Shown: piece after piece, positions 250-12,527 of the stretch
Numbering within the stretch: the stretch's first letter is position 1
How the letters are laid out: each line of letters opens with the position of its first letter
From: Nitrososphaeraceae archaeon
GTDB lineage: Archaea > Thermoproteota > Nitrososphaeria > Nitrososphaerales > Nitrososphaeraceae
NCBI GenBank assembly: GCA_044870765.1
Contig: JBIOZG010000020.1
Coordinates: 1-22,010, forward strand
Length of the DNA: 22,010 nucleotides
Direction: 5' to 3'
The notes under the pieces: model-generated
The model's database searches: none
What the model was told of the DNA's origin: nothing
The model's input: only the letters and a program-made list of their open reading frames with translations
Position numbers and translations under genes: made by a program

Positions 250-266
250 AAGCAAACTTAAAGTAT
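250..266 (+). promoter_or_regulatory. Putative BRE/TATA promoter of the aIF2-alpha gene
   Basis: Purine-rich AAGCAAA followed by CTTAAAGTA (257-265), about 26-33 nt upstream of ATG 291, the usual archaeal spacing for a short or absent leader. Confidence 0.45.
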
Positions 267-290
267 AGTACTCAAGTGCGTATGTTCTAA

Positions 291-1091
291 ATGGCCACCG
301 ATATCAAACAACTTCCAGAAGCAGGTGATTTGGTAATTGCAACCATAAAGGAAGTCACAGGTCATGGAGCCTATGTATCTTTGGATGAATATCAAGAATT
401 AACCGCATTTCTGCATGTATCTGAAATTGCAACAGGGTGGATAAGGAACATAGAGAGATACGTGAGACCTAAACAAAAAACAGTGCTTAAGGTCATAAGA
501 GTAGACAAATCAAGAGTTGAAGTAGACCTTTCTTTAAAACAGGTATCGCGTGAAGAGAGAAAATCCAAACTTATCGAAGTAAAGAAGAGTGAGAAAGCAT
601 CTGCATTTATGCATATGATTAAAACCAAAACAGGCATGCCCGATGATAAGATTAAAGACCTTCAGGATGTTATATTACAAAAATTTGACTATCTTTATGA
701 TATGTTTGAAGCTGTTGCCTTTAAGGGAATTGACTCTATAAAATCACTTGAGATTTCTGACGAGACAAGAGCAGCGATAGCAGAGGAAAGCAAAAAGATT
801 CAAATTCCCAGTGTTGAGATTCGAGGAGTTATAGAACTTAACATAAACGAACCACAAGGGGTCGAAACCATAAAGAATGTTCTTTCATCAGCAGAACTAA
901 ATAAGAATAACACTTCAATCGAAATTTCATATATTGCCGCACCTCGCTATCGAATAATTGCAAAAGCAGAAAATTACAAAATTGCTGAAAAAACTCTTAA
1001 CAACGCTGTTGAGAAAATTTCAAATTCAGTAGGCAAAAAGGTGGGATTATTTAATTTTATTAGAGAAGACACTAAAAAAAATAGGAGGTAG
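291..1091 (+). CDS. eif2a: Translation initiation factor aIF2 subunit alpha
   Basis: N-terminal S1 domain (LPEAGDLVIATIKEV..GAYVSLDEY..FLHVSEIATGWIRNIERYVR..VLKVIRVD..VDLSLKQV), C-terminal YIAAPRYRI motif, 266 aa, followed by nop10 as in most archaea. Confidence 0.97.
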   Translation: MATDIKQLPEAGDLVIATIKEVTGHGAYVSLDEYQELTAFLHVSEIATGWIRNIERYVRPKQKTVLKVIRVDKSRVEVDLSLKQVSREERKSKLIEVKKSEKASAFMHMIKTKTGMPDDKIKDLQDVILQKFDYLYDMFEAVAFKGIDSIKSLEISDETRAAIAEESKKIQIPSVEIRGVIELNINEPQGVETIKNVLSSAELNKNNTSIEISYIAAPRYRIIAKAENYKIAEKTLNNAVEKISNSVGKKVGLFNFIREDTKKNRR

Positions 1092-1094
1092 GTG
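1084..1094 (+). promoter_or_regulatory. Shine-Dalgarno-like element for nop10, overlapping the eif2a stop
   Basis: GGAGGTAGGTG at 1084-1094; the AGGTG part ends 5 nt before ATC 1100. Confidence 0.6.
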
Positions 1095-1099
1095 TAGCT

Positions 1100-1264
1100 A
1101 TCAAACATCTTTTACGAAAATGCCATTCTTGCAAAACCTATACGCTTTATGAAAAATGCACGATTTGCAATAATACTACACTCGATCCACATCCTCCAAA
1201 GTTCTCCATGGAAGACAAGTACATAAGATATAGAATAGAAGAAAAATACTTAAATAAAGATTAA
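1100..1264 (+). CDS. nop10: H/ACA RNP protein Nop10, about 54 aa, apparent non-canonical ATC start
   Basis: Manual translation (I/M)KHLLRKCHSCKTYTLYEKCTICNNTTLDPHPPKFSMEDKYIRYRIEEKYLNKD*. It has the CxxC..YTL..CxxC zinc ribbon and the HPPKFSxEDKYxxYR Nop10 signature, directly after eif2a. There is an in-frame TAG at 1082-1084 and no ATG/GTG/TTG between it and the first Cys. Confidence 0.93.
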   Translation: MKHLLRKCHSCKTYTLYEKCTICNNTTLDPHPPKFSMEDKYIRYRIEEKYLNKD

Positions 1265-1273
1265 TCCTGGATT

Positions 1274-1297
1274 AAAAAAGTAAAATTATTTTTTTTT
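1274..1297. terminator. Bidirectional oligo-T terminator region between nop10 and the convergent 145-aa gene
   Basis: T9 on + at 1289-1297 and A6 at 1274-1279 (T6 on -), between convergent stops at 1264 and 1309. Confidence 0.55.
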
Positions 1298-1308
1298 AGG
1301 AAAACATC

Positions 1309-1746
1309 TCAAGATGTATTGTTACTTATATTGCTGATACTAATATTGGAACTCTGGTTATTCAATTCACTGCTTGCTGCATCAATGACTTGCTCAAGAG
1401 ATGAAGAGGACGAATTTCCATTACTTGCAGCGTCAATCACTTCTTGCAAAGAAGTAGATTGTCCTCCACCGATTGCTTGAATTACTTGGTCAACAACCTG
1501 CGATTTTGCGTCAGAGCTGTTCGTCACGTTCAAAACATACGGTATTGCATTCTTGGTATTTGAGTCACTAACATTTTGGGTTGCAGTTGCATTTGATAGA
1601 GAATTTGTATTATTATTAGATGTATTTTGTGATATCTGACCATACACCGTAATGTCAGAGTATGTATTTCCCATATAGCAAATTACAAACAAGGCCGACA
1701 GAGAGATAATAGCATATGTAAGATTCCCATTTCTTTGCATATTCAT
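1309..1746 (-). CDS. Secreted Asn/Ser-rich low-complexity protein with a short repeated helical motif
   Basis: Hydrophobic N-terminus (YAIISLSALFVICYM) with a likely cleavage site at VYG|Q; repeats SLQEVIDAAS and SLEQVIDAAS; many N-X-S/T sequons; TATA-like ATATAATAT about 25 nt upstream. Confidence 0.75.
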   Translation of the reverse strand: MNMQRNGNLTYAIISLSALFVICYMGNTYSDITVYGQISQNTSNNNTNSLSNATATQNVSDSNTKNAIPYVLNVTNSSDAKSQVVDQVIQAIGGGQSTSLQEVIDAASNGNSSSSSLEQVIDAASSELNNQSSNISISNISNNTS

Positions 1747-2405: not shown

Positions 2406-3185
2406 TTATTGAGGATTGCATCCGCCACTTGGCTGACTAACGAAGCAGTTGTTCTTGAGTAGTTCGTTTCCGTTAATGTTGAGAGGCAAGCCGTCAGCAT
2501 TGTTTATGTCGACATCATTCTTTAGTACATTGTTATACAGTATCGTATTCTTTGTACTTTGTGCATCTACGAATATCCCATTTCTGCTTCCGCCGATAGA
2601 ATTAGCATCTACTTGCCCTTTGTCAGTATTGACCAAGGTGACACCAGCAAGATCATTACCGGTCATCATATTGGCATGTATCTGAACTCCTATGGATGAG
2701 TGAGACGCCACGCCGATTGTATTGGGTCCGATAAAGTTCTGTTCAATGGTACTTCCAATTGAACCTGTCATGAAGATTGCTATTTTATTTCCTTCAAATG
2801 TGACTCTGTGGACATTCGTATTTTCAGAACCAGTTATCAAAACTCCTGCTTGGAAACTACGAATAGCGCCAGAACCCTCTATAACTACATTATTTGAATG
2901 AGGTACTGCTATTCCTACTTTGGAACTGTTGGCTCCTGGTCCGCTGATTGAGTATCCATTCAAATTAATGTTTGTGTTATCTCCTCCAACAATTAATCCA
3001 TCGCCCTCACAGACAAGATTTGCAGTTAACGTGATGTTGCCATGAACTACTTGACCGCATGCTGGACTTGATAATGGTAAGCCTTGTGCTAGTGCTACTT
3101 GCATTGAACTCTGTATATTTACTCCACTGATAGTCGCTAGTGCTACCAATATTGTTGCTAAGATGTATGACATTGTTTGTTGCAT
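2406..3185 (-). CDS. Secreted right-handed parallel beta-helix (pectin lyase/NosD-like) protein
   Basis: Signal peptide ending VALA|Q; CG..ITLTANLVC..DGLIVGGDNTNINLNGYSISG cap; repeated GI/V-x-I ... N-x-I-x-x-N coils; terminal Cys pair; CTTAAATA TATA-like box about 25 nt upstream. Confidence 0.88.
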   Translation of the reverse strand: MQQTMSYILATILVALATISGVNIQSSMQVALAQGLPLSSPACGQVVHGNITLTANLVCEGDGLIVGGDNTNINLNGYSISGPGANSSKVGIAVPHSNNVVIEGSGAIRSFQAGVLITGSENTNVHRVTFEGNKIAIFMTGSIGSTIEQNFIGPNTIGVASHSSIGVQIHANMMTGNDLAGVTLVNTDKGQVDANSIGGSRNGIFVDAQSTKNTILYNNVLKNDVDINNADGLPLNINGNELLKNNCFVSQPSGGCNPQ

Positions 3186-3507
3186 CCATAATAGGGCTAC
3201 ATAATTAACTATTTAAGTCGAACTCATCTTTCTATTGTAACTAAGTTGCAGTATAAGTAGTCCTTCTACTAGATGCAATAAATATTAAATTCTTTCATAA
3301 ATACTATACTTTTCCCAAATACTCTCAAACATTTGATTATTCCACAAAACTCTCCAGAATTCAATAGATTGAATCATGAGAGCGCAAAACCATAGAATCC
3401 ATACTCGTCATATTCGTCAATAAATTTTACTTTGAGATTGTTCTGGATAATCGAGAAAGAATTAGTCGTCAACAAGAAATATATTCAATTTTTATCTCAA
3501 ACATAAC

Positions 3508-4536
3508 GTGAAACTGGCTATCGTTGGTGCGGGAGTTGCAGGATCCTATCTAGGTAACCGTCTACAGGGAGAAGGACACCAAGTGGAAATCTTTGAGGCT
3601 TCAAAAAAGGAATCTCATTGGCCAGTGTGTGCATGGGGTGCATCAAGGAATATGCTTGAATCATTTTCAAAGAGTGCTGGATTAACGTTTGAGGATTATG
3701 TACTACATCGTGGAAAAAAATTGAGAATGGACCTTCCCGACGATAAGGTTGAATATTTGGATCTTAAGGGGTTGGTTACTTATGATAAATATAGCTGGGA
3801 GCATGACCTTTGCCGAGGAATAAAGATAAACTATGACTTTCATTGCGCCCCAGAATCAGAATTTCTTTCAAATTTTGACTATGTCATGGATTGTACTGGC
3901 CTGCATAGATCTCTTCTTCCTAAATCCCCTCATGATTTCATAATACCTTCATACGAATACCTTGTAGACAATGTCGATGGAATTGATGAATTTTATGTTA
4001 TAGGATACAAAGGAGCTAGAGGTTATTTCTGGTTTTTCCCCTTAGGTAATGGGCGAGCATATATCGGTGCGGGTGATATTGATCGTAAATATTACGGTAT
4101 ATCAGAATTCTTTGAGAAAAATCCTGGTGCAAAGACGCTTAGAAAGATAGGACGACCAATAAGACTTTCTCCTCCCAAGCGCATGCTACCTTTTCACAAT
4201 GGTAACATAATTGGAGTTGGTGAATCAATAGGCTGTGTATTTCCAATGCTAGGGGAAGGCATTATTCCTTCCCTAATTTGCTGCAATATTTTCTTAGAAG
4301 TCTTAAATAAAAATTCAAAATTTGATTCAGAACTTTACAAGAAAAGAATTCTCAAGCAATTCGGATATTATGACGATGTTTACAGGATAGTCAGGTTGAA
4401 AATGGACGGTAAGCTCAATTCTATAAAGCATTTGAAATTACTTTTAAGCATGTATAGAAATATGAAAAGAGAAGAAATGAGATTTGGGTTTGGTATTGAT
4501 TTTGAACAAATGAATAGGTTATTGAAAGCACTCTGA
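3508..4536 (+). CDS. FAD-dependent oxidoreductase, geranylgeranyl reductase (GGR)-like family
   Basis: GAGVAG dinucleotide-binding motif, GYFWFFP (GGR YxWxFP motif) and VGESIGCVFPMLGEGI (variant of GDAAG..P..GEGI); GTG start. Confidence 0.88.
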   Translation: MKLAIVGAGVAGSYLGNRLQGEGHQVEIFEASKKESHWPVCAWGASRNMLESFSKSAGLTFEDYVLHRGKKLRMDLPDDKVEYLDLKGLVTYDKYSWEHDLCRGIKINYDFHCAPESEFLSNFDYVMDCTGLHRSLLPKSPHDFIIPSYEYLVDNVDGIDEFYVIGYKGARGYFWFFPLGNGRAYIGAGDIDRKYYGISEFFEKNPGAKTLRKIGRPIRLSPPKRMLPFHNGNIIGVGESIGCVFPMLGEGIIPSLICCNIFLEVLNKNSKFDSELYKKRILKQFGYYDDVYRIVRLKMDGKLNSIKHLKLLLSMYRNMKREEMRFGFGIDFEQMNRLLKAL

Positions 4537-4775
4537 TATTGTAGGTACTGTGATAGTAGCCATTCAGACCCCCTCCTTAATCTTGATTTGACTTTGTATG
4601 AGGTTGACTTTGATAATATTTGGTGTCAAATTGGCGATTTTCTAATAGGTTGTACAGTGAATTGTACCTAATACAATATCCATTTTCTCTCACTTCTATT
4701 TTCGGTTTACCATGCTATTAAATAGGTTAAATTTGAACGGAATCTATTTGTAAAAGACAAACACTAAGTTCAACT

Positions 4776-5234
4776 ATGCCTTATTCAATTAGTTCAGACT
4801 GGTTCAGGAGACGCTGGCTTGACTTTCGGAATGGACATAGTATATACCTAGTTTTTGCAATGACTTTTGCCAATTTCATAACAATTCAGTATCAATTGTT
4901 AATAGACAGGCTGCCTTATCTGGGTGAGCTTTTTGATAGTATTTTGATTTTTGCAATAGTGTTTATTTTGGCGTATGTTCCGTTGAGTATAGTATTAGGA
5001 TATTGGCACAGGAAAAGTCAATGGAAAGTCGAACAAGATGCCTTGTTTAGGGAAAATAAAGTTGGAGCTATAATGTGGATGTATGTGATTGATCTTATTG
5101 AAGGTAATGTAAGTGAAGAGGACAAGAAATTGATGAAAGAATCTCTGCTTAAAATTACCAGAGGCGAAACACGATTATATGGAATCAAGAAATCAACTGA
5201 AAACCGAAAGAGTACTGACAAGAAAGACGAGTAA
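4776..5234 (+). CDS. Hypothetical two-TM membrane protein
   Basis: 152-aa ORF with a basic N-terminus (WFRRRWLDFRNGH), two hydrophobic segments and a charged tail; resembles a family I associate with Nitrososphaerota; function unknown. Confidence 0.8.
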   Translation: MPYSISSDWFRRRWLDFRNGHSIYLVFAMTFANFITIQYQLLIDRLPYLGELFDSILIFAIVFILAYVPLSIVLGYWHRKSQWKVEQDALFRENKVGAIMWMYVIDLIEGNVSEEDKKLMKESLLKITRGETRLYGIKKSTENRKSTDKKDE

Positions 5235-5358
5235 ATTGCAGTGTCTTGATATGCTGAAACTAGTACTATTATCCTAGCTTTCCAACTCTTGGTTCAAACT
5301 ATTTCGCTGAATTGTAATTAACAAAAGATGTTTATGGTCCGTTATTTCCATTATACCG

Positions 5359-6207
5359 GTGGGCAGTTATTATGCAATCGTGACCTGCAGGAATTCTGAA
5401 AATGAAATTGAAAATGCAATAATTTCGTTATTACAACAGACTACAAAGCCAAAATATGTTATAGTTGTCGACGATGGGTCAACAGACGGTACGGCTAATA
5501 TCTTGGAAGGATTAAAGTCAAAGAACGATGGATTCTATGTGATAACAAATCCCGATTTGGGATATGACATTGGAAGAGTAGTTAAAAATTGGAATAGTGC
5601 AATTAATCTTGCAAGAAAACTAAATTTGGAAAAAACAGATTATCATATGATAAGCACCGACGACACCCATTATGAGGAGTCTTATGCAGAGAAAATAATG
5701 AACAAGATGGACGCTGACAACAAAATAGCGATATCTTCGGGCAACTACGACAGCAATAGTTACGCCACTCCTCACGGGGCGGGTAGATTCGTCAGGAGTT
5801 CATTCTTCGAAGAATTTCTCGGTCTCTACCCTGAAAAAATGGGATACGAGTCTGTTATCTTACAAATGTCCTTACATCATGGGTTCAAAAATCTCGTCAA
5901 CAACGATGCACGCTTTTCACACACCAGACAATTAGGCGCTAATCACCATTTTTACGAATTTGGTGCTAGCATGAGGACACTAGGGTATCATCCGCTCTTT
6001 GTTTTAGGCAGGGTCGCACAATGCTTTCTAACAGGACAGCCAATAGGTAGAATGGGCGCAGTACATATGCTGTATTATTATTTGTCCTATAAACCAAAAC
6101 AAGATGGCTATGATAGCATGTATGATCCAGAAATCAGGAAAGCAATAAGAATAAGGCAGAGGAGGCGAATTAAGCAGATATTCAGATTGAGGAATACTAC
6201 TACTTAG
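5359..6207 (+). CDS. Glycosyltransferase family 2 (GT-A)
   Basis: IVTCRN.E..I..AI.SLLQQT, VIVVDDGSTDGT and a DxD-like STDDT; Arg-rich C-terminal helix; GTG start. Confidence 0.92.
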   Translation: MGSYYAIVTCRNSENEIENAIISLLQQTTKPKYVIVVDDGSTDGTANILEGLKSKNDGFYVITNPDLGYDIGRVVKNWNSAINLARKLNLEKTDYHMISTDDTHYEESYAEKIMNKMDADNKIAISSGNYDSNSYATPHGAGRFVRSSFFEEFLGLYPEKMGYESVILQMSLHHGFKNLVNNDARFSHTRQLGANHHFYEFGASMRTLGYHPLFVLGRVAQCFLTGQPIGRMGAVHMLYYYLSYKPKQDGYDSMYDPEIRKAIRIRQRRRIKQIFRLRNTTT

Positions 6208-6339
6208 GAACTACCATGATAGAATTAAATTCCAGTTTTTATTGTTGATTTGGAACGGACTTGAGTCAAGATTAAAGATTTAAAAGATGGATCGAAAACA
6301 AGTGGATATTTATATTTTAATTATGCTATTTCTTGATAA

Positions 6340-7422
6340 ATGAAAATAGCATCCATAGTAGGAGCTCGACCCAATTTTGTTAAATTAGGACCTGTTCATA
6401 AATCACTGAGGAGTTCAGGAATCGAGCATCTGATAGTTCACACAGGTCAACATTATGATTATGAAATGTCTGATATTTTCTTTTCCGATTTTGAACTTCC
6501 CAAACCCGATATTCACCTGGGAGTGGGATCCGGAAGTTCTTGTTTCCAGCTAGGAGAAATTATTAAACGCTTGGAGAATAAATTAACAGATAAACAAATT
6601 GATCTTGTTCTTGTTTATGGTGACACTAATTCGACCTTGGCTGGAGCCATAAGTGCAAATAAGTGTAATATAAAATTAGGACATATTGAAGCCGGATTGC
6701 GTAGTTACGATCCCTCAATGCCCGAAGAATACAACAGAATCTTAACGGATAATCTGAGCGATTATTTATTCACGCCAACTAGGAACGCTGTAAAAAATCT
6801 GAAAAATGAAAAAATAAGAGGAAAAGTATACTATACTGGAGATTTATCAGTCGAAATTATAGACAAGACTAGATCAATCTCTAAAAACTCAGAAATACTT
6901 GACGTATTGAATCTGAAATCAAAATCTTATTTACTCCTTACAATGCACAGAGCCGAAAATACAAGCTCAAGGGATTTATTTATTCAGCTCTTAGAGACAT
7001 TCGAAGTACTCAAGGACAATATTATAGTATTTCCAATACATCCCAGAACGAAAAAAATGTTTGAAACATTTGGGCTTTTAGATAGACTTTTGAATTGTTC
7101 CAATGTTAAAACGTTACTGCCAGTAGGATATATAGATTTTATAGCGCTGTTACAAAATTCCTTAAAAGTCGTTACTGATTCAGGGGGAATACAAAAAGAA
7201 GCGTACCTACTAAGGGTGCCTTGCATCACCATGAGAAAGAACACCGAGTGGATTGAAACTATCAAAGGACAATGGAATGTCCTTACGGGAGTTGATAGCA
7301 AGAAAATAGTTAAAGCCGTCAGAAGACCATCACCAATTTTTAGATACTCAAAATCGGTATTCGGTAGTGGTAGGACATCACAAGTTATTAGTGACCTAAT
7401 TTCTAGTATCATTTCGCATTGA
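6340..7422 (+). CDS. wecB: UDP-N-acetylglucosamine 2-epimerase (non-hydrolysing)
   Basis: GARPNFVK, HTGQHYD, VYGDTNSTLA, HIEAGLRS, MPEE.NR, TMHRAEN, FPIHPRT and TDSGGIQKEA motifs. Confidence 0.96.
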   Translation: MKIASIVGARPNFVKLGPVHKSLRSSGIEHLIVHTGQHYDYEMSDIFFSDFELPKPDIHLGVGSGSSCFQLGEIIKRLENKLTDKQIDLVLVYGDTNSTLAGAISANKCNIKLGHIEAGLRSYDPSMPEEYNRILTDNLSDYLFTPTRNAVKNLKNEKIRGKVYYTGDLSVEIIDKTRSISKNSEILDVLNLKSKSYLLLTMHRAENTSSRDLFIQLLETFEVLKDNIIVFPIHPRTKKMFETFGLLDRLLNCSNVKTLLPVGYIDFIALLQNSLKVVTDSGGIQKEAYLLRVPCITMRKNTEWIETIKGQWNVLTGVDSKKIVKAVRRPSPIFRYSKSVFGSGRTSQVISDLISSIISH

Positions 7423-7718
7423 AACTTTTTTGTTCGACTATAAAGTTGGATATGGTTATATATCCACATGTCACAGGTAGAAAGCATCTATTATTCCTAT
7501 TTCTTTTCCAATCTGATCACTATTGATACTTTCAATCGCATTATTTACGGTATTTTCATAGAGTTGCCTAAGAAACTTATCTCCGATTCTTTCTTCAGAC
7601 ATAATAGACTATCGACTTGATGTGCCTTTGTCTTTGTAATGAGTATGACTGCCGCAGGCCTGGGGAATAATTCAAAACCTTGTGGATTATAATGGTAATA
7701 AATACCAATTAATACCAA

Positions 7719-7730
7719 CATATATATGCC
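7719..7730 (+). promoter_or_regulatory. Putative TATA box of the 176-aa gene
   Basis: CATATATATG about 23-32 nt upstream of ATG 7751. Confidence 0.45.
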
Positions 7731-7750
7731 CTTGTGCATAATATAATAAC

Positions 7751-8281
7751 ATGGCATCAAACAAAGAAGTAAAAAATACAGAAAACATCAATATCGCTCT
7801 CGACGAAACAAAATCAATTGTTAAAAAGACAACAGATGAAGCAGTAAAGGAAATTCCACGGTTTACTAAAGCCGTTACCGAATATCAACAAGAGACCATT
7901 CAGGCAACAAAAGATATTGCAGATAATTTTCTAGATTCACAAAAAGAGGTTATCCATTCAATGCAATCCTTATGGGTTCCGTACATTGAAAATGTACAAA
8001 ATTCATATTTGTCATATTGGGTTTCTCCACAAAGAGTCACAGAAAATTATGCAAGAGCAGTAAGCAATATTACAGACAGTACAATAGTCGCAACCAGATT
8101 AGCAAATAACGCACTATTTGCATCTATGGACGCATGGAAAAATTCAATACAGCACGCAAGAGACAACGCAAAAGAATTTTCACGGCTGAATACTAATGTC
8201 GCAAATACATTCGAAAACGCTGCAAGAGACAATTTAAGAGATTTTTCAAAAGAAGTAGAAACACATTCAAGACGACAATAA
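7751..8281 (+). CDS. All-alpha amphipathic protein, phasin-like hypothetical
   Basis: 176 aa, no Cys and no Gly, rich in A/N/Q/T/E/K with helical periodicity (ALDETKSIVKKTTDEAVKEIPRFTKAVTEYQQETIQATKDIADNFLDSQKEVI); own promoter; T7 run at 8326-8332 downstream. Confidence 0.8.
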   Translation: MASNKEVKNTENINIALDETKSIVKKTTDEAVKEIPRFTKAVTEYQQETIQATKDIADNFLDSQKEVIHSMQSLWVPYIENVQNSYLSYWVSPQRVTENYARAVSNITDSTIVATRLANNALFASMDAWKNSIQHARDNAKEFSRLNTNVANTFENAARDNLRDFSKEVETHSRRQ

Positions 8282-8470
8282 GCGTTATTGTGATAGATAA
8301 TAAAGAATAATCTATTCACTCTTAATTTTTTTATAATAATAAAACTCCAATATTTTCATTTCATCCCTCCCATCAGATTAGATAAATTGCGGTAGAGAAA
8401 TCTCCTAAAATCGTTTTATACTTTTTCGACCTGGATTCATTATCAACACTGCATCAGCAACCCCGCTGGT

Positions 8471-8492
8471 GAGATACAGTGGAGATACAGTG
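8471..8492. repeat. Perfect 11-bp tandem duplication
   Basis: GAGATACAGTG at 8471-8481 and 8482-8492 in the convergent intergenic region. Confidence 0.9.
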
Positions 8493-8577
8493 GCAACTTG
8501 CATCTTATCAGGAAATCTTTTAGTCTACGTAACTTAGTTAAATTAGATATCATAAAGTGCATTCAGATTTTTAGTTC

Positions 8578-8781
8578 CTATATTTCATAGATAACTAGTG
8601 CAGAATAATTGACATCTGAATTTTGTTTAGCGTCCTGCAAAAATTTGGAGGCAGAGGAAAATTTAATGTCAATAAGTCTGAATGTGCTGCCATGTTGTTT
8701 CGTCAAGTCCTCCATAAATTTATCAATATTATCCGTTACCGAGATTATCTTGTCAGATTCAAAGCCTATTGTCCGTATCAT
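8578..8781 (-). CDS. Small protein, Cse60 (Spore_Cse60)-like
   Basis: 67 aa with ATG start; pattern of an N-terminal beta strand, I(D/N)xF(M/L), IDIK(F/Y)S and terminal YSALVIY, as in the Cse60 family. Confidence 0.65.
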   Translation of the reverse strand: MIRTIGFESDKIISVTDNIDKFMEDLTKQHGSTFRLIDIKFSSASKFLQDAKQNSDVNYSALVIYEI

Positions 8782-8883
8782 TTCGAATCTTTAGGATCTA
8801 GTGGTTAAATGCTTTATTTGTCTTGTCCCTCTCCCGCAGGTGATATATACATTAAATCAAATATCCCCTTCCACACAACCAAT

Positions 8884-9606
8884 ATGATGGGGTCACGCTA
8901 CGCTCCTCGCTTCGGAATATCACTTGGCTTGGGTATATTACGTGAGTCATGGGAGGCACTAATTCAAAGTAATATGGAATTTCCGGAAGTCTTTGAAGAT
9001 TATGAAAAATATCACTCCACTGTTAACACGGGTAATTTATCAAGGGCTAGGCTAGTGGAAGACTGGATTGAACCAGGTGCAACAGTACTGGACGTTGGAG
9101 TAGGAGACGGAACAGTTTCGGAATATTTGATAAAGAATAAAGATGTTAAAGTGACTGGACTGGATATTTCAGCAACAGCATGCGAAAAAGCAAGGCAGCT
9201 TGGAATAGCAACAGAAATACGAGATATTACAAATGGTCTGGGCCTTTCTGATGATACCTTTTATGATTACATACTGTTGTTGGAAGTAATTGAACATACG
9301 GCGTATCCGCAAAAGATTTTGAATGACGCAATCAATCATGCAACAAAAGGAGTAATTGTGACTATCCCTAATAGTGCGTATATTAAATGGCGCATTCAGA
9401 TGTTAAGAGGGTATGTTCCACGGCAATCTTTTACACATTTACACTTCTGGTCTGTAAGGGATTTTGAGATATTTTGTAAAGAAGCGAATATTAAAATATT
9501 AGAATTTAGAACTTTTCTGCCCAACCATCTGATGAAATTCAAAAACCTTTTGGCATGGCAACAATGCTGGTTGTTATCTCCGAAGAGGAACAATAATCAG
9601 CAATGA
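8884..9606 (+). CDS. MetW-like class I SAM-dependent methyltransferase
   Basis: WIEPGATVLDVGVGDG (motif I), GLDIS, YDYILLLEVIEH and VIVTIPNSAYIKWRIQMLRGYVP..HLHFWSVRDFE, typical of MetW-like proteins. Start moved from 8809 to ATG 8884 (or 8887) because the upstream extension spans the TATA-like ATATATACATTAAA of the divergent promoter region. Confidence 0.85.
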   Translation: MMGSRYAPRFGISLGLGILRESWEALIQSNMEFPEVFEDYEKYHSTVNTGNLSRARLVEDWIEPGATVLDVGVGDGTVSEYLIKNKDVKVTGLDISATACEKARQLGIATEIRDITNGLGLSDDTFYDYILLLEVIEHTAYPQKILNDAINHATKGVIVTIPNSAYIKWRIQMLRGYVPRQSFTHLHFWSVRDFEIFCKEANIKILEFRTFLPNHLMKFKNLLAWQQCWLLSPKRNNNQQ

Positions 9607-9685
9607 CAGTGCAATTACTCTAAAGTACAAGACTAGCAACGGGAATTATTTTCTATGAATTGAAGTACGCATTGGTTCATCAAAT

Positions 9686-10582
9686 TTAGAGATTTAGGAT
9701 GCCCAAATCACTGTAAATTTTGGACAATTGAGAAGCTACGTTTACTGCATCATGTTCGCTGGGCAGGCCGCGACGAAATTGTAATTTATAATCCAATACA
9801 CTTAGCCCGCAAGCTAGAGTTTGCAGTGCTGTGCTACTTAAATTCTCTAAAATAATATCGTTGACATATCTGATATCGACGTATGTCCTATATCCTCTTA
9901 TAAAATCAGGAATGCCAGAATACATTATTGGATTCTTGGTCCTGTCAATTACCTCTATATTGAGATTAACCTGGTTCGCCCTGCAAAGGTCCAGGGTCTC
10001 TTGTATGTTTGTTACCTCGGAATTTATAGTAAATGCATCTTTCAACTCTCTCTCTGAATCATTATTTGGACTAAAATGTTCTATGTCTATAGGAATAGGA
10101 ATGTGGATGCTGTCGCTTCTAACCAATGGTAACAAATCAGGTGTAGAGACACATACTGCATCAGCTAATTTCTGAGCTTTTCTATGTCCAATCTTTTTCC
10201 TATAAAACATCTTGAGTTTAATCATTGTATCTGATAGCAATGATCGGTGAGGAAGCTCTTGTTTTTTTAATCCGCGAATGTCGGTTCCATGATAATGCAA
10301 AATTATCTTCTTTTGTCTGTGGAATTTCTTTCGCAGCTCAAACAGTATATCTATGTAGCCATGCACGTGAATTACATCAGCAGTTTCCGCTTCTTGGAGA
10401 CATGTTTCAGTAAATTTCTCATAGGTTACATTAATTAAATAATCTCTATAGAAATCATAAATTCCATACTTATCAAAAACATCCCTGTTCCAGATAACCT
10501 TGGCATCATGTCCCTGCTTTCGTTGATATTTTGAGTAAATGCACGCGACGCCAGCTGCATCAAGTATGTGCAATATGCGCAT
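9686..10582 (-). CDS. Glycosyltransferase, GT-B/GT4-like (compact)
   Basis: MRILHI, ADVIHVH, ILHYHGTDIR, VCVSTPDL, IPIPIDIEHF and ENLSSTALQTLACG (variant of Ex7E-A-CG). Confidence 0.8.
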   Translation of the reverse strand: MRILHILDAAGVACIYSKYQRKQGHDAKVIWNRDVFDKYGIYDFYRDYLINVTYEKFTETCLQEAETADVIHVHGYIDILFELRKKFHRQKKIILHYHGTDIRGLKKQELPHRSLLSDTMIKLKMFYRKKIGHRKAQKLADAVCVSTPDLLPLVRSDSIHIPIPIDIEHFSPNNDSERELKDAFTINSEVTNIQETLDLCRANQVNLNIEVIDRTKNPIMYSGIPDFIRGYRTYVDIRYVNDIILENLSSTALQTLACGLSVLDYKLQFRRGLPSEHDAVNVASQLSKIYSDLGILNL

Positions 10583-10674
10583 GTTTATTGAATTAAACTA
10601 TCGTCTAATAATCTATTACTTGGCACTTGAGTAACAAATATTCTCATGATTAATTCTTGATAATTTTACAAAAC

Positions 10675-11552
10675 TCAATTAGATAAATCCTCAACAATTA
10701 GCCGTAATCCTTTTCTGATCTCAATAGTGGGCCTCCAATTAAACGCCTTTGAAAGCTTTGTGATATCGGCTCTCATATCTGAAATATCAGGAATGGCCGA
10801 TTTGGGAAATTGAATTTTTATTTTATTGCCAAGTAATCTTGCAAGAAGGTCTGCAACTTGGTTCAGATTGTAGCTCCTTCCATAACCTAAATTATAAAAA
10901 TTATATTCCTTGGGGAAGTTGTGTAAAATTTTCTCTATTAGATACACAAATCAGTAACAAAAAGAAAGTCTCTTTTAATTTCTTTTCCAGATAATTTAAC
11001 TTTACGATCTCTTTCCATTTGATTGATGATAGAAAGAATTAGGGAACGATCTCTAGAATCAAGCCCAATATACATAGAATGGACTCAAAGTTACTATTTT
11101 AATATTAAAGTGTTGCGAATAACTTTGGCAAATTTTTTCTGCAATTAATTTACTGGTATTGTAAGGAGAATGGGGGATTTACAACATGCTTTTCATCAAT
11201 CGGAAGATATTGAGGTTCACCGTATACATAGTTACTGGCATAAATCAATTTTTTGATATTCCTAATTCTTGCAAATTCAAGCAATTCAAGCACGTTGAGG
11301 GTTCTTATTACATTAGTAAAGTAAAGCTTTATGCGGTTCTCCAAACGAACCTGAAATAGAGGTCTTTGCAGCAAGGTAAACTACTGTATTCACATTTTCA
11401 ATTGTTGGGAACTGGTCGACATTGGTTAAATCGATAAGTTTTCGATTTTTGGCAGTAGTAACAACATGGAATCCAACTTCCTTTAAACTCCTAGATAATT
11501 GTCTTCCAACAAATCCTTTACTTCCAGTGGGAAGTACTTTTTTAATTTTAAT
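10675..11552 (-). pseudogene. Frameshifted NAD-dependent epimerase/dehydratase (extended SDR) pseudogene
   Basis: Reconstruction: KKVLPTGSKGFVG..VVYLAAKTS / YFTNVIRTLNVLE..YVYGEPQYLPIDEKH..NP / HSPYNTSK..VTLSPFYVY / GLDS..KRDFLFVTD / VYLIE..YNLGYG..RADITK..WRP. Frameshifts near 11320, 11174, 11067 and 10948; no canonical start codon. Confidence 0.92.
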
Positions 11553-11564
11553 TTGGAAAATTTG

Positions 11565-12527
11565 CTAATACAGCCATAACTCTGATTTGTAGTTTCTATA
11601 CCAATCGATTAGTAAAGCAAGGCCTTTCTCAAATTGTATCTTTGGTTTGAATTGTAATAGTTTCTTTGCTTTTGAAATGTCTGCAATTAGCCTTTGTACT
11701 TCAACTGGCCTGGGTTCGACGTGAATCGGTCGCAAGTTTTTGTCTCTTGCACCATGTTTGATAACCATGTCTGCAATTTCTTTTATGGATATTTCTTTAC
11801 CGCTACCAAAGTTTATCCCATTTTTACCTGGATTACCTTTGGATCTAAGTACAGTATCATAAGCATACACGGCATCCTTCACAAACATATAGTCCCTGGA
11901 TTGTTTTCCGTCACCGTAAATAATAGGGGGCTTGTTTTGTAATACTCTATTTATGAATATTGCTATCACGCCTCCGTAGCCTGTATCTTTTTGTCTGGGA
12001 CCAAAAAAATTGAAACATCGAATAATGTCTACTCCAAGATCATAAGTTTCATTATAGGTATAACATAATCTGTCAGCAGCAATTTTACTTACTCCATACG
12101 GATGTTTTGCAGATAGTGGGTGTGACTCGTCCATTGGAGCATATTCAGCAGATCCATAGACTTCGCTTGTTGAAGAAAATAATATCTTGTCAATATCATT
12201 CATTCTGGCAAACTCCAAAATTTTCAGGGTTCCACCGAGATTAATTTTAAAAGTCTCTTCCGGATTGACGATTGACCTATCGACATGGATTTGAGCTGCT
12301 AAATGAAAAATGGCATCAAAATCATTTGGTAGTTTAGAATATACTTCGTTCAGGGCGATGTCTCCACGAATAAATTTAAAATTCTTTTTGTGCAGAAGAG
12401 TGCGGACATTGTTGAGGTTTCCATTCATCAAATTATCCACTCCGTATACCAGATTTTTATCGAGAACATACTTTTCAGACAGGTGACTTCCCAGGAAACC
12501 CGCGGCACCTGTTATGAGAATTTTCAT
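11565..12527 (-). CDS. NAD-dependent nucleotide-sugar epimerase / 4,6-dehydratase (extended SDR)
   Basis: ITGAAGFLG, HLAAQIHVDRS, STSEVYG, YGVSK (YxxxK), RCFNFFGPRQ and GDGKQSRDYMFV motifs. Confidence 0.95.
   Translation of the reverse strand: MKILITGAAGFLGSHLSEKYVLDKNLVYGVDNLMNGNLNNVRTLLHKKNFKFIRGDIALNEVYSKLPNDFDAIFHLAAQIHVDRSIVNPEETFKINLGGTLKILEFARMNDIDKILFSSTSEVYGSAEYAPMDESHPLSAKHPYGVSKIAADRLCYTYNETYDLGVDIIRCFNFFGPRQKDTGYGGVIAIFINRVLQNKPPIIYGDGKQSRDYMFVKDAVYAYDTVLRSKGNPGKNGINFGSGKEISIKEIADMVIKHGARDKNLRPIHVEPRPVEVQRLIADISKAKKLLQFKPKIQFEKGLALLIDWYRNYKSELWLY

What the first reader, a model, noticed from the sequence alone, without database searches (positions are those of the whole stretch)
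1082..1264. nop10 appears to initiate at a non-canonical ATC directly behind the aIF2-alpha gene
Seen: the Nop10 frame is intact, but between the in-frame TAG (1082-1084) and the first Cys (1121) the codons are GAG GTA GGT GTA GCT ATC AAA CAT CTT TTA CGA AAA, with no ATG/GTG/TTG. ATC 1100 lies 7 codons before the first Cys and 5 nt after a strong SD-like GGAGGTAGGTG that overlaps the eif2a stop. The only canonical start nearby is an out-of-frame GTG-TAG start-stop at 1092-1097. Known: Nop10 is a core H/ACA RNP subunit usually encoded after eif2a; aIF2 delivers initiator tRNA and takes part in start-codon selection; bacterial infC uses an AUU start for fidelity-linked autoregulation. Inference: Nop10 output, and hence rRNA pseudouridylation, could be coupled to initiation stringency or to re-initiation after eif2a, with the GTG-TAG acting as a competing site.
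Basis: partly seen in the sequence, partly recalled or inferred. Interest (0 to 1): 0.75.

Follow-up and report, generated by a model that had tools for sequence, protein, structure and literature searches.

The report
Nop10 gene starting at ATC codon
A small ribosome-biogenesis gene in a soil ammonia-oxidising archaeon has no normal start codon and most likely begins at a conserved ATC, an unusual case that public protein records already imply and one of several weak-start genes in this genus.

Summary
The Nop10 frame (1085-1264) has no ATG/GTG/TTG before the zinc ribbon. ATC 1100-1102 is its only near-cognate codon there, and it aligns with Met1 of solved Nop10.

It is not an assembly error. 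ATC is present in 5 of 5 closest species genomes and 18 of 18 clade metagenome contigs. It is also kept in an independent DNA assembly and in contigs from two RNA libraries. The gene is single-copy and under purifying selection (pN/pS 0.06-0.16).

In this Nitrososphaeraceae genus, 12 of 34 nop10 genes lack a canonical start (ATC, ACG, ACT, CTG), while the adjacent eif2a keeps ATG in 33 of 33. The ATC/ACG clade carries the strongest Shine-Dalgarno match of the genus, within the top 0.43% of this genome's genes, placed for ATC and not for GTG 1092.

The most likely mechanism is Met-tRNAi initiation at AUC, helped by that SD and by eif2a termination 8 nt upstream.

The proposed GTG-TAG competitor is dispensable. 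An aIF2-linked stringency sensor is not supported, because unrelated genes (DRG GTPase, PyrI) use conserved CTG starts.

NCBI protein records match the ATC-start reading (M, then identical residues 2-54). I rate it a new member of a known kind, of moderate interest.

The parts
258..267 (+). TATA-like box (TTAAAGTATA) about 28 nt before the eif2a ATG. It is a possible promoter of a leaderless or near-leaderless eif2a-nop10 transcript.
   Evidence: Read by eye and interpreted from general knowledge of archaeal promoters. Not tested. In relative L002 a 280-nt intergenic gap precedes eif2a.
291..1091 (+). eif2a (aIF2 alpha), 266 aa, ATG start, TAG stop at 1089-1091
   Evidence: One search gives the ORF. 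One search gives Pfam EIF_2_alpha at 7.4e-23 and S1 at 2e-11. ATG is at the aligned Met in 33 of 33 genus loci.
1082..1084 (+). TAG in the Nop10 frame. It closes that frame upstream and rules out any N-terminal extension or a -1 fusion from the A8 run at 1074-1081.
   Evidence: It is present in all ATC/ACG loci except the 1-nt deletion variant L096.
1083..1094 (+). Shine-Dalgarno element AGGAGGTAGGTG. AGGAGGT gives 7 contiguous pairs with the genome's own 16S 3' end (...GATCACCTCCT).
   Evidence: The 16S 3' end was read. The predicted duplex is -12.9 kcal/mol, among the six strongest of 34 genus loci. Only 5 of 1155 G000 genes (0.43%) reach that value. Its 4-mers start at -16, -15 and -14 from ATC, inside the genome's enriched window.
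1092..1097 (+). GTG-TAG start-stop in the eif2a frame. It is probably incidental, since GGTG is part of the SD-like element.
   Evidence: Not conserved and too close to the SD core.
1092..1099 (+). 8-nt non-coding spacer between the eif2a stop and ATC
   Evidence: Most substitutions here would change the residue if read in the Nop10 frame. One contig (L096) has a 1-nt deletion here while the frame from ATC onwards stays intact.
1100..1102 (+). ATC, the inferred near-cognate translation start of nop10
   Evidence: It is the only single-mismatch relative of ATG in the open frame before the first Cys. It aligns with ATG, GTG or TTG of relatives and with residue 1 of solved Nop10 2hvy_C. It is invariant in 5 genomes and 18 contigs.
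1100..1264 (+). nop10 CDS, 54 codons plus TAA, with zinc-ribbon Cys at residues 8, 11, 20 and 23
   Evidence: translation; Pfam; solved structures; single copy; pN/pS 0.06-0.16 within the clade.
1289..1297 (+). T9 run 25 nt after the nop10 stop. It is a likely oligo-T transcription terminator, lying between nop10 and the convergent ORF 1309-1746(-).
   Evidence: Read and interpreted from general knowledge of archaeal termination. Not tested.

Best explanation
nop10 is a functional, single-copy gene whose translation starts at AUC 1100-1102. That codon is most likely read by initiator Met-tRNA, giving MKHLLRKC... It lies on a bicistronic eif2a-nop10 mRNA.

Two local features would compensate for the weak codon. 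The first is an unusually strong Shine-Dalgarno element (AGGAGGT plus GGTG, 1083-1094) at the spacing this genome uses. The second is the arrival of ribosomes that terminate eif2a only 8 nt upstream, which allows translational coupling or re-initiation.

Shown: the codon, its conservation, the SD, the spacing and purifying selection. Inferred: that Met-tRNAi initiates there, the relative contribution of SD-led de novo initiation versus re-initiation, and co-transcription.

The ATC state is one outcome of a genus-wide tendency. The nop10 start has changed at least 8 times among 7 codon states. Other genes in the genus (DRG GTPase, PyrI) also have stable CTG starts.
For: 1. No canonical start exists between TAG 1082 and Cys 1121, and ATC is the only near-cognate codon there.

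2. ATC aligns with the start of relatives. Query residue 2 aligns with residue 2 of Pyrococcus-type Nop10 2hvy_C.

3. ATC is present in 5 of 5 clade genomes (one of them, G020, is unpublished) and in 18 of 18 clade metagenome contigs, although the 8-nt spacer varies and carries one indel. ATC is kept in independent DNA and RNA-library contigs.

4. pN/pS is 0.06-0.16 within the ATC/ACG clade, with pS up to 0.49. There is one copy per genome.

5. The ATC/ACG loci have the six strongest SD duplexes of 34 genus loci, at -12.9 to -13.1 kcal/mol, against -7.6 to -1.6 for the ATG loci. Relative to ATG sisters, the SD gain comes from changes that are silent for eif2a: AGA>AGG and TAA>TAG.

6. In G000 only 5 of 1155 genes reach -12.9 kcal/mol. 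SD 4-mers peak at -17..-11, where those of nop10 lie.

7. The gap between the eif2a stop and the nop10 start is -4 to +9 nt throughout the genus. This is within the -8..+10 nt range that PMC10666635 (passages read) treats as predictive of termination-reinitiation.

8. The three lineages without a canonical start each have either a strong SD (ATC/ACG -12.9, ACT -9.1) or a stop-start overlap or 2-nt gap (CTG clade).

9. NCBI protein records P0010, P0013 and P0016 have M at residue 1 and are otherwise identical, residues 2-54, to the translations of L056/L060, L058 and L057, whose DNA has ATC. I could not see the records' own DNA.

10. There is precedent. An ATC start of Deinococcus dnaA was shown by N-terminal proteomics (PMC2830850, passages read).
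Against: - There is no direct evidence of initiation: no N-terminal peptide and no initiation-site profiling.
- The SD core GGAGG ends 11 nt before ATC, at the long end of usual spacings. Only the extended duplex reaches closer.
- Most genes of this genome show no SD signal. The mean duplex is -3.25 against -3.42 for an in-gene control, so SD-led initiation is a minority mode here.
- Relative L017 (G017) has GTC ACT at the homologous place, with no single-mismatch codon at all in the open frame. Something other than simple near-cognate pairing may therefore operate in this gene family.
- RNA-library contigs that bridge the junction cannot prove a single transcript, and DNA may be present in those libraries.
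- No stable RNA structure supports an unfolding type of coupling (z = +0.96).
Confidence: 0.75

Rival explanations
1. The weak ATC makes Nop10 output a sensor of initiation stringency or aIF2 activity, with GTG-TAG as a competing start-stop site, by analogy with infC AUU autoregulation.
For: A near-cognate start is intrinsically sensitive to the fidelity of start-codon selection (general knowledge). The gene lies directly behind eif2a. GTG/ATG-TAG or GTG-TAA is present in many clade sequences: 3 of 5 ATC genomes, 14 of 18 ATC contigs, and the ACG-type loci.
Against: - GTG-TAG is dispensable. L003, L005, 4 of 18 contigs and the X20 strain lack it.
- The SD is 6-8 nt from GTG, outside the window this genome uses.
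- eif2a itself uses ATG in 33 of 33 loci, and Nop10 is not an initiation factor, so there is no feedback loop.
- The weak start is clade-limited, and sister species use ATG with the same gene order.
- Near-cognate CTG starts occur at unrelated genes that are not behind eif2a.
Confidence: 0.1
2. Recoding. Nop10 would be made by ribosomes that enter from another frame, either by a frameshift or hop from eif2a, or by initiation at GTG 1092 followed by a shift, so that ATC is just an Ile codon.
For: There is an A8 run at 1074-1081 and a GTG just upstream. In the ACT-type relatives L017 and L023, an ATGA overlap with the eif2a stop opens a 5-codon ORF that ends on the T of ACT plus the next two bases (read by eye). 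This hints that short-ORF events may matter in that lineage.
Against: - The Nop10 frame has TAA 1073 and TAG 1082 after or inside the A-run, so a -1 slip there terminates.
- No slippery site lies between 1085 and 1091.
- GTG is not conserved, and TAG follows it immediately.
- A 1-nt deletion in the spacer (L096) changes every upstream frame relation, yet the gene from ATC onwards is intact.
Confidence: 0.03
3. Initiation at another non-AUG codon of the open frame, upstream (GAG..GCT) or downstream (AAA..AAA) of ATC.
For: L017 shows that a locus can lack any single-mismatch codon. In ACT/ACG-type relatives the codon one position upstream is ATT or ATC, so the exact start can move by a codon within this family.
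Against: - None of the other 11 codons between 1085 and 1120 is a single-mismatch relative of ATG.
- The upstream codons vary mostly in ways that would change the residue and tolerate an indel.
- The downstream codons are conserved as coding and align with residues 2-7 of solved Nop10.
Confidence: 0.05
4. Start-loss pseudogene, so that no Nop10 is made from this locus.
For: There is no canonical start. A hexamer coding score for the ORF is about 0, although the gene is short and rich in Cys and basic residues.
Against: - pN/pS is 0.06-0.16, with an intact frame and all four Cys kept across 5 species and 18 contigs.
- It is the only copy in each genome.
- Nop10 is a core H/ACA RNP subunit (general knowledge).
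Confidence: 0.03
5. Assembly or sequencing error, with ATG in reality.
For: None was found.
Against: ATC is present in 5 independent species assemblies, 18 metagenome contigs, one independent DNA run and two RNA-library assemblies.
Confidence: 0.01

Closest known systems
Deinococcus dnaA ATC start and rpsL CTG start (Baudet et al. 2010, PMC2830850; passages read)
   Same: A conserved housekeeping gene has no canonical start. ATC sits at the position that restores a conserved N-terminus, and it is conserved among close relatives.
   Different: That case is bacterial and was proven by N-terminal proteomics. This one is archaeal, is an internal cistron 8 nt behind another gene, has a very strong SD, and has no protein-level evidence.
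infC AUU/AUA start autoregulation in bacteria (as described in passages of PMC2830850; mechanism details recalled)
   Same: A near-cognate start codon whose use depends on the fidelity of initiation.
   Different: In infC the weak codon sits on the gene of the very factor that discriminates against it and is conserved widely. Here the factor gene (eif2a) starts with ATG in 33 of 33 loci. The weak codon is on a neighbour with no role in initiation and is limited to a small clade.
Termination-reinitiation coupled gene pairs of Haloferax volcanii and E. coli (Huber et al. 2019, PMC6728339; the 2023 paper PMC10666635; passages read)
   Same: Co-directional pair, a gap within -8..+10 nt, and an SD inside the 3' end of the upstream gene. 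The order-level relatives show the classical NTGA overlaps, with a gap of -4 in L024, L026, L047, L052 and L054.
   Different: The pairs studied there use canonical NTG starts. Coupling is untested here, and eif2a and nop10 do not encode subunits of one complex.
Archaeal Nop10 of solved H/ACA RNPs (2hvy_C and 7 other PDB sequences)
   Same: Same family, same length, and the zinc-ribbon Cys and the hpp+fs block align. Residue 2 aligns with residue 2.
   Different: Only the start codon differs.

Membership tests
Nop10 (Pfam PF04135) | Profile score above the curated cut-off | tested here: met
   67.8 bits against a cut-off of 27.2, residues 2-49 on profile positions 2-49.
Nop10 (Pfam PF04135) | Archaeal-type four-Cys zinc ribbon and conserved C-terminal block aligned with solved Nop10 | tested here: met
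   Cys at residues 8, 11, 20 and 23. Alignment to 2hvy_C over residues 2-46, E = 3.6e-10.
Nop10 (Pfam PF04135) | Binds Cbf5 in the H/ACA RNP | not testable with these tools
   No complex job was run. It would add nothing to the start-codon question.
Gene with a near-cognate (table 11 alternative) start codon | No ATG/GTG/TTG between the upstream in-frame stop and the first essential residue | tested here: met
Gene with a near-cognate (table 11 alternative) start codon | Near-cognate codon at the position homologous to Met1 of relatives, conserved among close species | tested here: met
   ATC in 5 of 5 genomes and 18 of 18 contigs.
Gene with a near-cognate (table 11 alternative) start codon | Direct proof of initiation (N-terminal peptide or initiation-site profiling) | not testable with these tools
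   Only contigs of RNA libraries were available.
infC-type autoregulated weak start | The weak start lies on the gene of the factor that discriminates against it | tested here: not met
   eif2a has ATG in 33 of 33 genus loci. Nop10 is a pseudouridylation RNP subunit.
infC-type autoregulated weak start | The weak codon is conserved broadly across the group | tested here: not met
   In the genus the counts are ATG 16, TTG 5, ATC 5, CTG 4, ACT 2, GTG 1 and ACG 1 of 34. Outside the genus 19 of 20 loci are canonical.
Termination-reinitiation coupled pair | Co-directional genes with a stop-start distance of about -8 to +10 nt (criterion from PMC10666635) | tested here: met
   The gap is 8 nt in the window and -4..+9 nt in the genus.
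Termination-reinitiation coupled pair | Downstream translation depends on upstream translation | not testable with these tools
   Needs stop-codon insertion reporters.
Start-stop (minimal ORF) regulatory element, GTG-TAG | Conserved start-stop with an SD at working distance | tested here: not met
   Lost in L003, L005, 4 of 18 contigs and the X20 strain. The SD 4-mers lie at -8..-6 from GTG, against the genome's -17..-11 window.

The most novel reading that the evidence does not exclude
This soil Nitrososphaeraceae genus may run a relaxed or tunable start-codon regime. Evidence in favour:
- Conserved genes use CTG (DRG GTPase, PyrI), ATC/ACG/ACT-ATT/CTG (nop10) and still unidentified non-canonical starts (RNase HII, a DNA methylase, an AlkB-like oxygenase, TauE, a Na/H exchanger).
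- Weak codons are paired with an SD or a stop-start overlap.
- The regime coincides with a second, divergent aIF1/SUI1 paralog that lacks the N-terminal Cys knuckle. At least two SUI1 matches occur in 23 of 37 genus genomes against 3 of 24 outside it.

If so, nop10's ATC would be a dial that sets low Nop10 output relative to aIF2 alpha and ties it to aIF1-dependent stringency.
Probability: 0.2. Interest if true: 0.7.

Novelty: new member of a known kind. Interest (0 to 1): 0.4.

Why it matters
Gene callers that allow only ATG/GTG/TTG miss or mis-call this essential gene. The 5.8-billion-protein collection held no exact match to the window's Nop10, only NCBI records of relatives and a 38-aa mis-call. 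Completeness estimates and pathway calls for soil ammonia oxidisers can therefore wrongly report Nop10 as absent.

The locus is also a natural series in one genus: ATG, GTG, TTG, CTG, ATC, ACG and ACT at one position, with SD strength or stop-start overlap changing alongside. That series could be used to measure how archaeal ribosomes trade start-codon strength against SD pairing and coupling. Experimental data on this are scarce outside Haloferax and Sulfolobus (this last point is from my own knowledge of the field, not from a call).

Tried and rejected
- Frameshift fusion from eif2a: rejected because of TAA 1073 and TAG 1082 in the Nop10 frame.
- GTG 1092 as the real start or as a competitor: rejected as not conserved and badly spaced.
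- RNA structure masking the start: the fold of 1040-1160 is no better than shuffles (z = +0.96, 165 of 200 shuffles fold as well).
- The bacterial-type promoter and terminator scan gave nothing above shuffles and does not apply to archaea.
- An unusual initiator tRNA. aragorn found two G1-C72 CAU tRNAs, and a short pattern search found one initiator-like anticodon stem with CAU in contig C50. Nothing was odd, but aragorn's tRNA set was incomplete at 22-27 genes.
- Loss of aIF1: rejected, since two SUI1 genes are present.
- Genome-wide hexamer scan for startless genes. It is blind to nop10 itself (score -0.5), so it only gives a lower bound.
- Control scan of a 400-kb sample of another family's genome, G048. 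It gave 2 candidates per 441 genes, against 6 per 491 in a 420-kb G000 subsample. These numbers are too few to claim that G000 is enriched. One G048 candidate (a UPP-synthase-like ORF, named by eye) also lacks a canonical start.
- RNA evidence. Contigs from RNA libraries bridge the junction (X15 376-1122, X20 641-1147, X16 1-1800), but they cannot show a single transcript, a 5' end or expression level. For X16, 13 of its 34 differences were not listed, so its base at 1100-1102 is not certain.
- Literature. Searches for Nop10 + start codon + archaea returned 9 papers, none on this topic by title or abstract listing. Nitrososphaera + start codon + CTG returned 0 papers. A search for near-cognate initiation in archaea gave nothing specific.
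Full report
**What is there.** The window starts a contig of a 2.0-Mb, 96.65%-complete genome. Its relatives are titled Nitrososphaeraceae archaeon MAGs. Near-identical DNA occurs in soil and rhizosphere metagenomes.

The ORF at 291..1091 is aIF2 alpha (Pfam EIF_2_alpha plus S1). It ends AAT AGG AGG TAG. Eight nucleotides later, in the -1 frame, lies an open frame that Pfam recognises as Nop10 (67.8 bits against a cut-off of 27.2). That frame is closed upstream by TAG 1082-1084. It reads GAG GTA GGT GTA GCT ATC AAA CAT CTT TTA CGA AAA before the first zinc-ribbon Cys at 1121. It contains no ATG, GTG or TTG, and ATC 1100-1102 is its only single-mismatch relative of ATG.

ATG 1120-1122 and TTG 1129-1131 are further out-of-frame canonical codons nearby.

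**Is the C real?** I searched 61 related genomes and then all 40 genomes held for the genus. Of those 40, 34 have a nop10 match and each match is a single copy. The five closest species (G000, G030, G012, G016, G020; Nop10 94-100% identical) all have ATC. G020 is flagged unpublished, and four remain without it.

A scan of metagenome contigs returned 80 loci. Four were cut at the junction and one was misparsed because of an N. Of the other 75, 18 belong to the ATC clade and all 18 have ATC.

Contigs of an independent rhizosphere DNA run keep ATC (X3 record 16, 749-1399, sole difference at 1328). So do contigs of two RNA libraries. X15 record 1 covers 376-1122 and X20 record 6 covers 641-1147, and every counted difference in them lies elsewhere. 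An assembly error is excluded at the level of contigs. Raw reads were not available.

**Is ATC the start?**
- It aligns with ATG, GTG or TTG of relatives.
- In the alignment to solved Nop10 (2hvy_C), query residue 2 pairs with chain residue 2. ATC therefore occupies the place of Met1.
- The 8-nt spacer 1092-1099 behaves as non-coding. Within the clade it shows changes most of which would alter the residue in the Nop10 frame (GGT>AGT, GGT>GAT, GTA>TTA, GCT>TCT, GCT>ACT; GGT>GGC would be silent). Contig L096 has a 1-nt deletion there that changes every upstream frame relation. From ATC onwards the sequence is conserved, and the changes seen are mostly synonymous.
- The gene is under purifying selection. 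pN/pS is 0.06-0.16 within the ATC/ACG clade at pS up to 0.49.
- A -1 slip on the A8 run of eif2a would hit TAG 1082. GTG 1092 is followed at once by TAG and is not conserved. Recoding is therefore unlikely.

**What supports a weak codon here?** The genome's own 16S rRNA ends ...GATCACCTCCT. AGGAGGT (1083-1089) pairs with seven of those bases and GGT(G) extends the duplex. The predicted energy is -12.9 kcal/mol.

Among the 34 genus loci, the six ATC/ACG loci have the six strongest values (-12.9 to -13.1). The two ACT loci have -9.1, the ATG loci -7.6 to -1.6, and the CTG loci -3.0 to -5.6.

Compared with ATG-bearing sisters (..AGG AGA TAA..), the clade's SD arose by AGA>AGG and TAA>TAG. Both changes are silent for eif2a.

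In G000, only 5 of 1155 confidently placed genes (0.43%) reach -12.9. The average gene shows no SD signal at all: -3.25 against -3.42 for positions inside genes. SD-like 4-mers are enriched at -17..-11. Those of nop10 start at -16, -15 and -14 from ATC, but at -8 to -6 from GTG 1092. The element is therefore positioned for ATC.

The eif2a stop lies 8 nt before ATC. Across the genus the gap is -4 to +9 nt. This is inside the range for which termination-reinitiation was shown or predicted in Haloferax and E. coli (PMC10666635 and PMC6728339, passages read). No stable RNA structure is predicted.

**The wider pattern.** In the genus, the codon at this position is distributed as follows across the 34 loci:

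| Codon | Loci |
|---|---|
| ATG | 16 |
| TTG | 5 |
| ATC | 5 |
| CTG | 4 |
| ACT | 2 |
| GTG | 1 |
| ACG | 1 |

Twelve of the 34 have no canonical in-frame start. Outside the genus, 1 of 20 lacks one (L045, which has CTG).

On an eif2a DNA tree of 38 rows, the state changes at least 8 times. In contrast, eif2a keeps ATG in 33 of 33 complete genus loci.

Three separate lineages lost the canonical codon:
- the ATC clade with its ACG sister;
- an ACT/ACG lineage in which the preceding codon is ATT or ATC (L023, L117-L144), with L017 showing GTC ACT;
- a CTG clade in which CTG overlaps the eif2a stop (CTGA) or follows it by 2 nt.

Each lineage remains under purifying selection (pN/pS 0.13-0.36). 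Each combines the weak codon with either a strong SD or a tight stop-start junction.

**Is it special to nop10 or to aIF2?** No. A rough genome scan followed by Pfam found other G000 genes whose domain starts upstream of the first ATG/GTG/TTG. They are a DRG-type GTPase, PyrI, RNase HII, an N6/N4 DNA methylase, an AlkB-like oxygenase, TauE, a Na/H exchanger and a histidine kinase.

- For DRG, CTG GGA ATT CCT reads (M)GIP. CTG is present in 29 of 30 genus loci and TTG in one. A TATA-like box and a G-run at -13..-9 precede it, with a duplex of -10.2.
- For PyrI, CTG is present in most group-C loci, GTG in two, and ATG in three deeper-branching loci.
- RNase HII lacks any canonical start before its catalytic GVDEAGRG block in most of 30 loci. 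Its start is unresolved.

Some of these rows come from the unpublished genomes G020 and G034 (L180, L205, L210, L237, L238). The counts change by at most two without them.

A 400-kb control sample of another family's genome gave too few candidates to say whether G000 is enriched.

The genus often carries a second, divergent aIF1/SUI1 gene. At least two matches occur in 23 of 37 genus genomes against 3 of 24 outside it. This is a single phylogenetic correlation, and I list it only as a lead.

**Verdict on the interpretation.** The ATC-start reading is well supported. The GTG-TAG competitor and the aIF2-linked stringency sensor are not.
- GTG-TAG is lost in L003, L005, 4 of 18 contigs and the X20 strain.
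- eif2a itself is an ATG gene.
- Nop10 is not an initiation factor.
- Sister species with ATG keep the same gene order.

Coupling to eif2a termination remains plausible and untested.

**Novelty.** Near-cognate starts, ATC among them, are known. NCBI's start codon set for table 11 includes ATC (recalled, not checked in a call), and the Deinococcus dnaA ATC start was proven by proteomics (PMC2830850).

NCBI protein records of sister MAGs list 54-aa Nop10 proteins that have M at residue 1 and are otherwise identical to the ATC-start translations (P0010 on 68 contigs, P0013, P0016). A JGI record does the same for the ACG type (P0020). I could not see the DNA behind those records.

I found no paper that discusses this. 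I therefore file it as a new member of a known kind. The genus-wide series of start-codon states gives it some added value.

The rest of the window is an unrelated glycosylation and cell-envelope gene cluster.

Noticed in passing
L160 (G000:C5:89516-90625, minus strand); relatives L178-L207: The DRG-type GTPase gene starts at CTG (CTG GGA ATT CCT = MGIP). CTG is conserved in 29 of 30 genus loci and TTG in 1. A TATA-like box and a G-run at -13..-9 precede it. The first canonical codon lies inside the P-loop at residue 78.
   Followed up: yes
L170 (G000:C37:641-1102, minus strand); relatives L238-L267: The PyrI start is CTG in most group-C genus loci, GTG in L246 and L261, and ATG in L265-L267. 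The Pfam PyrI domain begins at residue 10, but the first canonical codon is residue 49.
   Followed up: yes
L173 (G000:C48:13407-14069, minus strand); relatives L208-L237: RNase HII has no ATG/GTG/TTG upstream of its catalytic GVDEAGRG block in most of 30 genus loci. ATT, ATC or ATA codons sit 2-3 codons before the block, and a conserved AAGGGATTAGAGTTC stretch lies upstream. The true start is unresolved.
   Followed up: partly
L159, L163, L174, L176, L164 (G000 contigs C54, C49, C4, C43, C54): Five more genes have a Pfam domain that starts upstream of the first canonical start codon. These are the N6_N4 DNA methylase, the AlkB-like 2OG-Fe(II) oxygenase, the Na/H exchanger, TauE and a histidine kinase. 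They were not checked in relatives. Some may be truncated genes.
   Followed up: partly
L168 (G000:C12:93847-97059) and about 70 nt upstream of it: carB (carbamoyl-phosphate synthase large subunit) appears interrupted. The N-terminal ..GSGAIKIGEAGE reads in one frame and ..FDYSGSQ.. in another, separated by about 22 extra bases. No ATG is visible before PKNETIKK. This could be an assembly fault or a real lesion or insert. It was read by eye.
   Followed up: no
L269 (G000:C12:169404-169616, plus strand) and L268 (G000:C28:41603-41815, minus strand): There are two aIF1/SUI1 genes. One has the N-terminal Cys knuckle (73.5 bits). The other is divergent and lacks it (52.3 bits). At least two SUI1 matches occur in 23 of 37 genus genomes against 3 of 24 genomes of other families of the order.
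   Followed up: partly
L017 (G017) and L023 (G019), eif2a-nop10 junction; metagenome loci L117-L144: In the ACT-type lineage, an ATGA overlap with the eif2a stop opens a 5-codon ORF whose stop (TAA or TAG) uses the T of ACT and the next two bases. Relatives read ATT ACG or ATC ACT. L017 reads GTC ACT and has no single-mismatch start codon at all. How Nop10 starts there is unexplained.
   Followed up: partly
L286:10013-10906 (minus strand; G048, another family of the order): A UPP-synthase-like ORF (named by eye from ..LDGNRRWAKK.., no Pfam run) has 73 open codons upstream of its first canonical codon. That codon falls inside the conserved block. Startless genes may therefore not be confined to the genus.
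   Followed up: no
protein P0009: The protein collection holds a 38-aa mis-call. It starts at the out-of-frame ATG inside nop10 and re-enters the Nop10 frame, which implies a 1-base insertion variant. No exact full-length match to the window's Nop10 was returned, which suggests that ordinary gene callers miss this gene.
   Followed up: partly
window 2406-12527: The rest of the near part of the window is an envelope and glycosylation cluster. It contains a NosD/beta-helix protein (2406-3185, minus), a GT2 glycosyltransferase (5359-6207), UDP-GlcNAc 2-epimerase (6340-7422), a MetW-like methyltransferase (8809-9606) and an NAD-dependent epimerase/dehydratase (11565-12527, minus). ORF 1309-1746 (minus), convergent with nop10, is Asn/Ser-rich and has no Pfam match.
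   Followed up: partly
L095 (metagenome contig), eif2a 3' end: One ATC-clade contig has an A9 run instead of A8. This ends eif2a early (..TKKK*), widens the gap to 15 nt, and turns GTG-TAG into ATG-TAG. It may be a homopolymer error.
   Followed up: no
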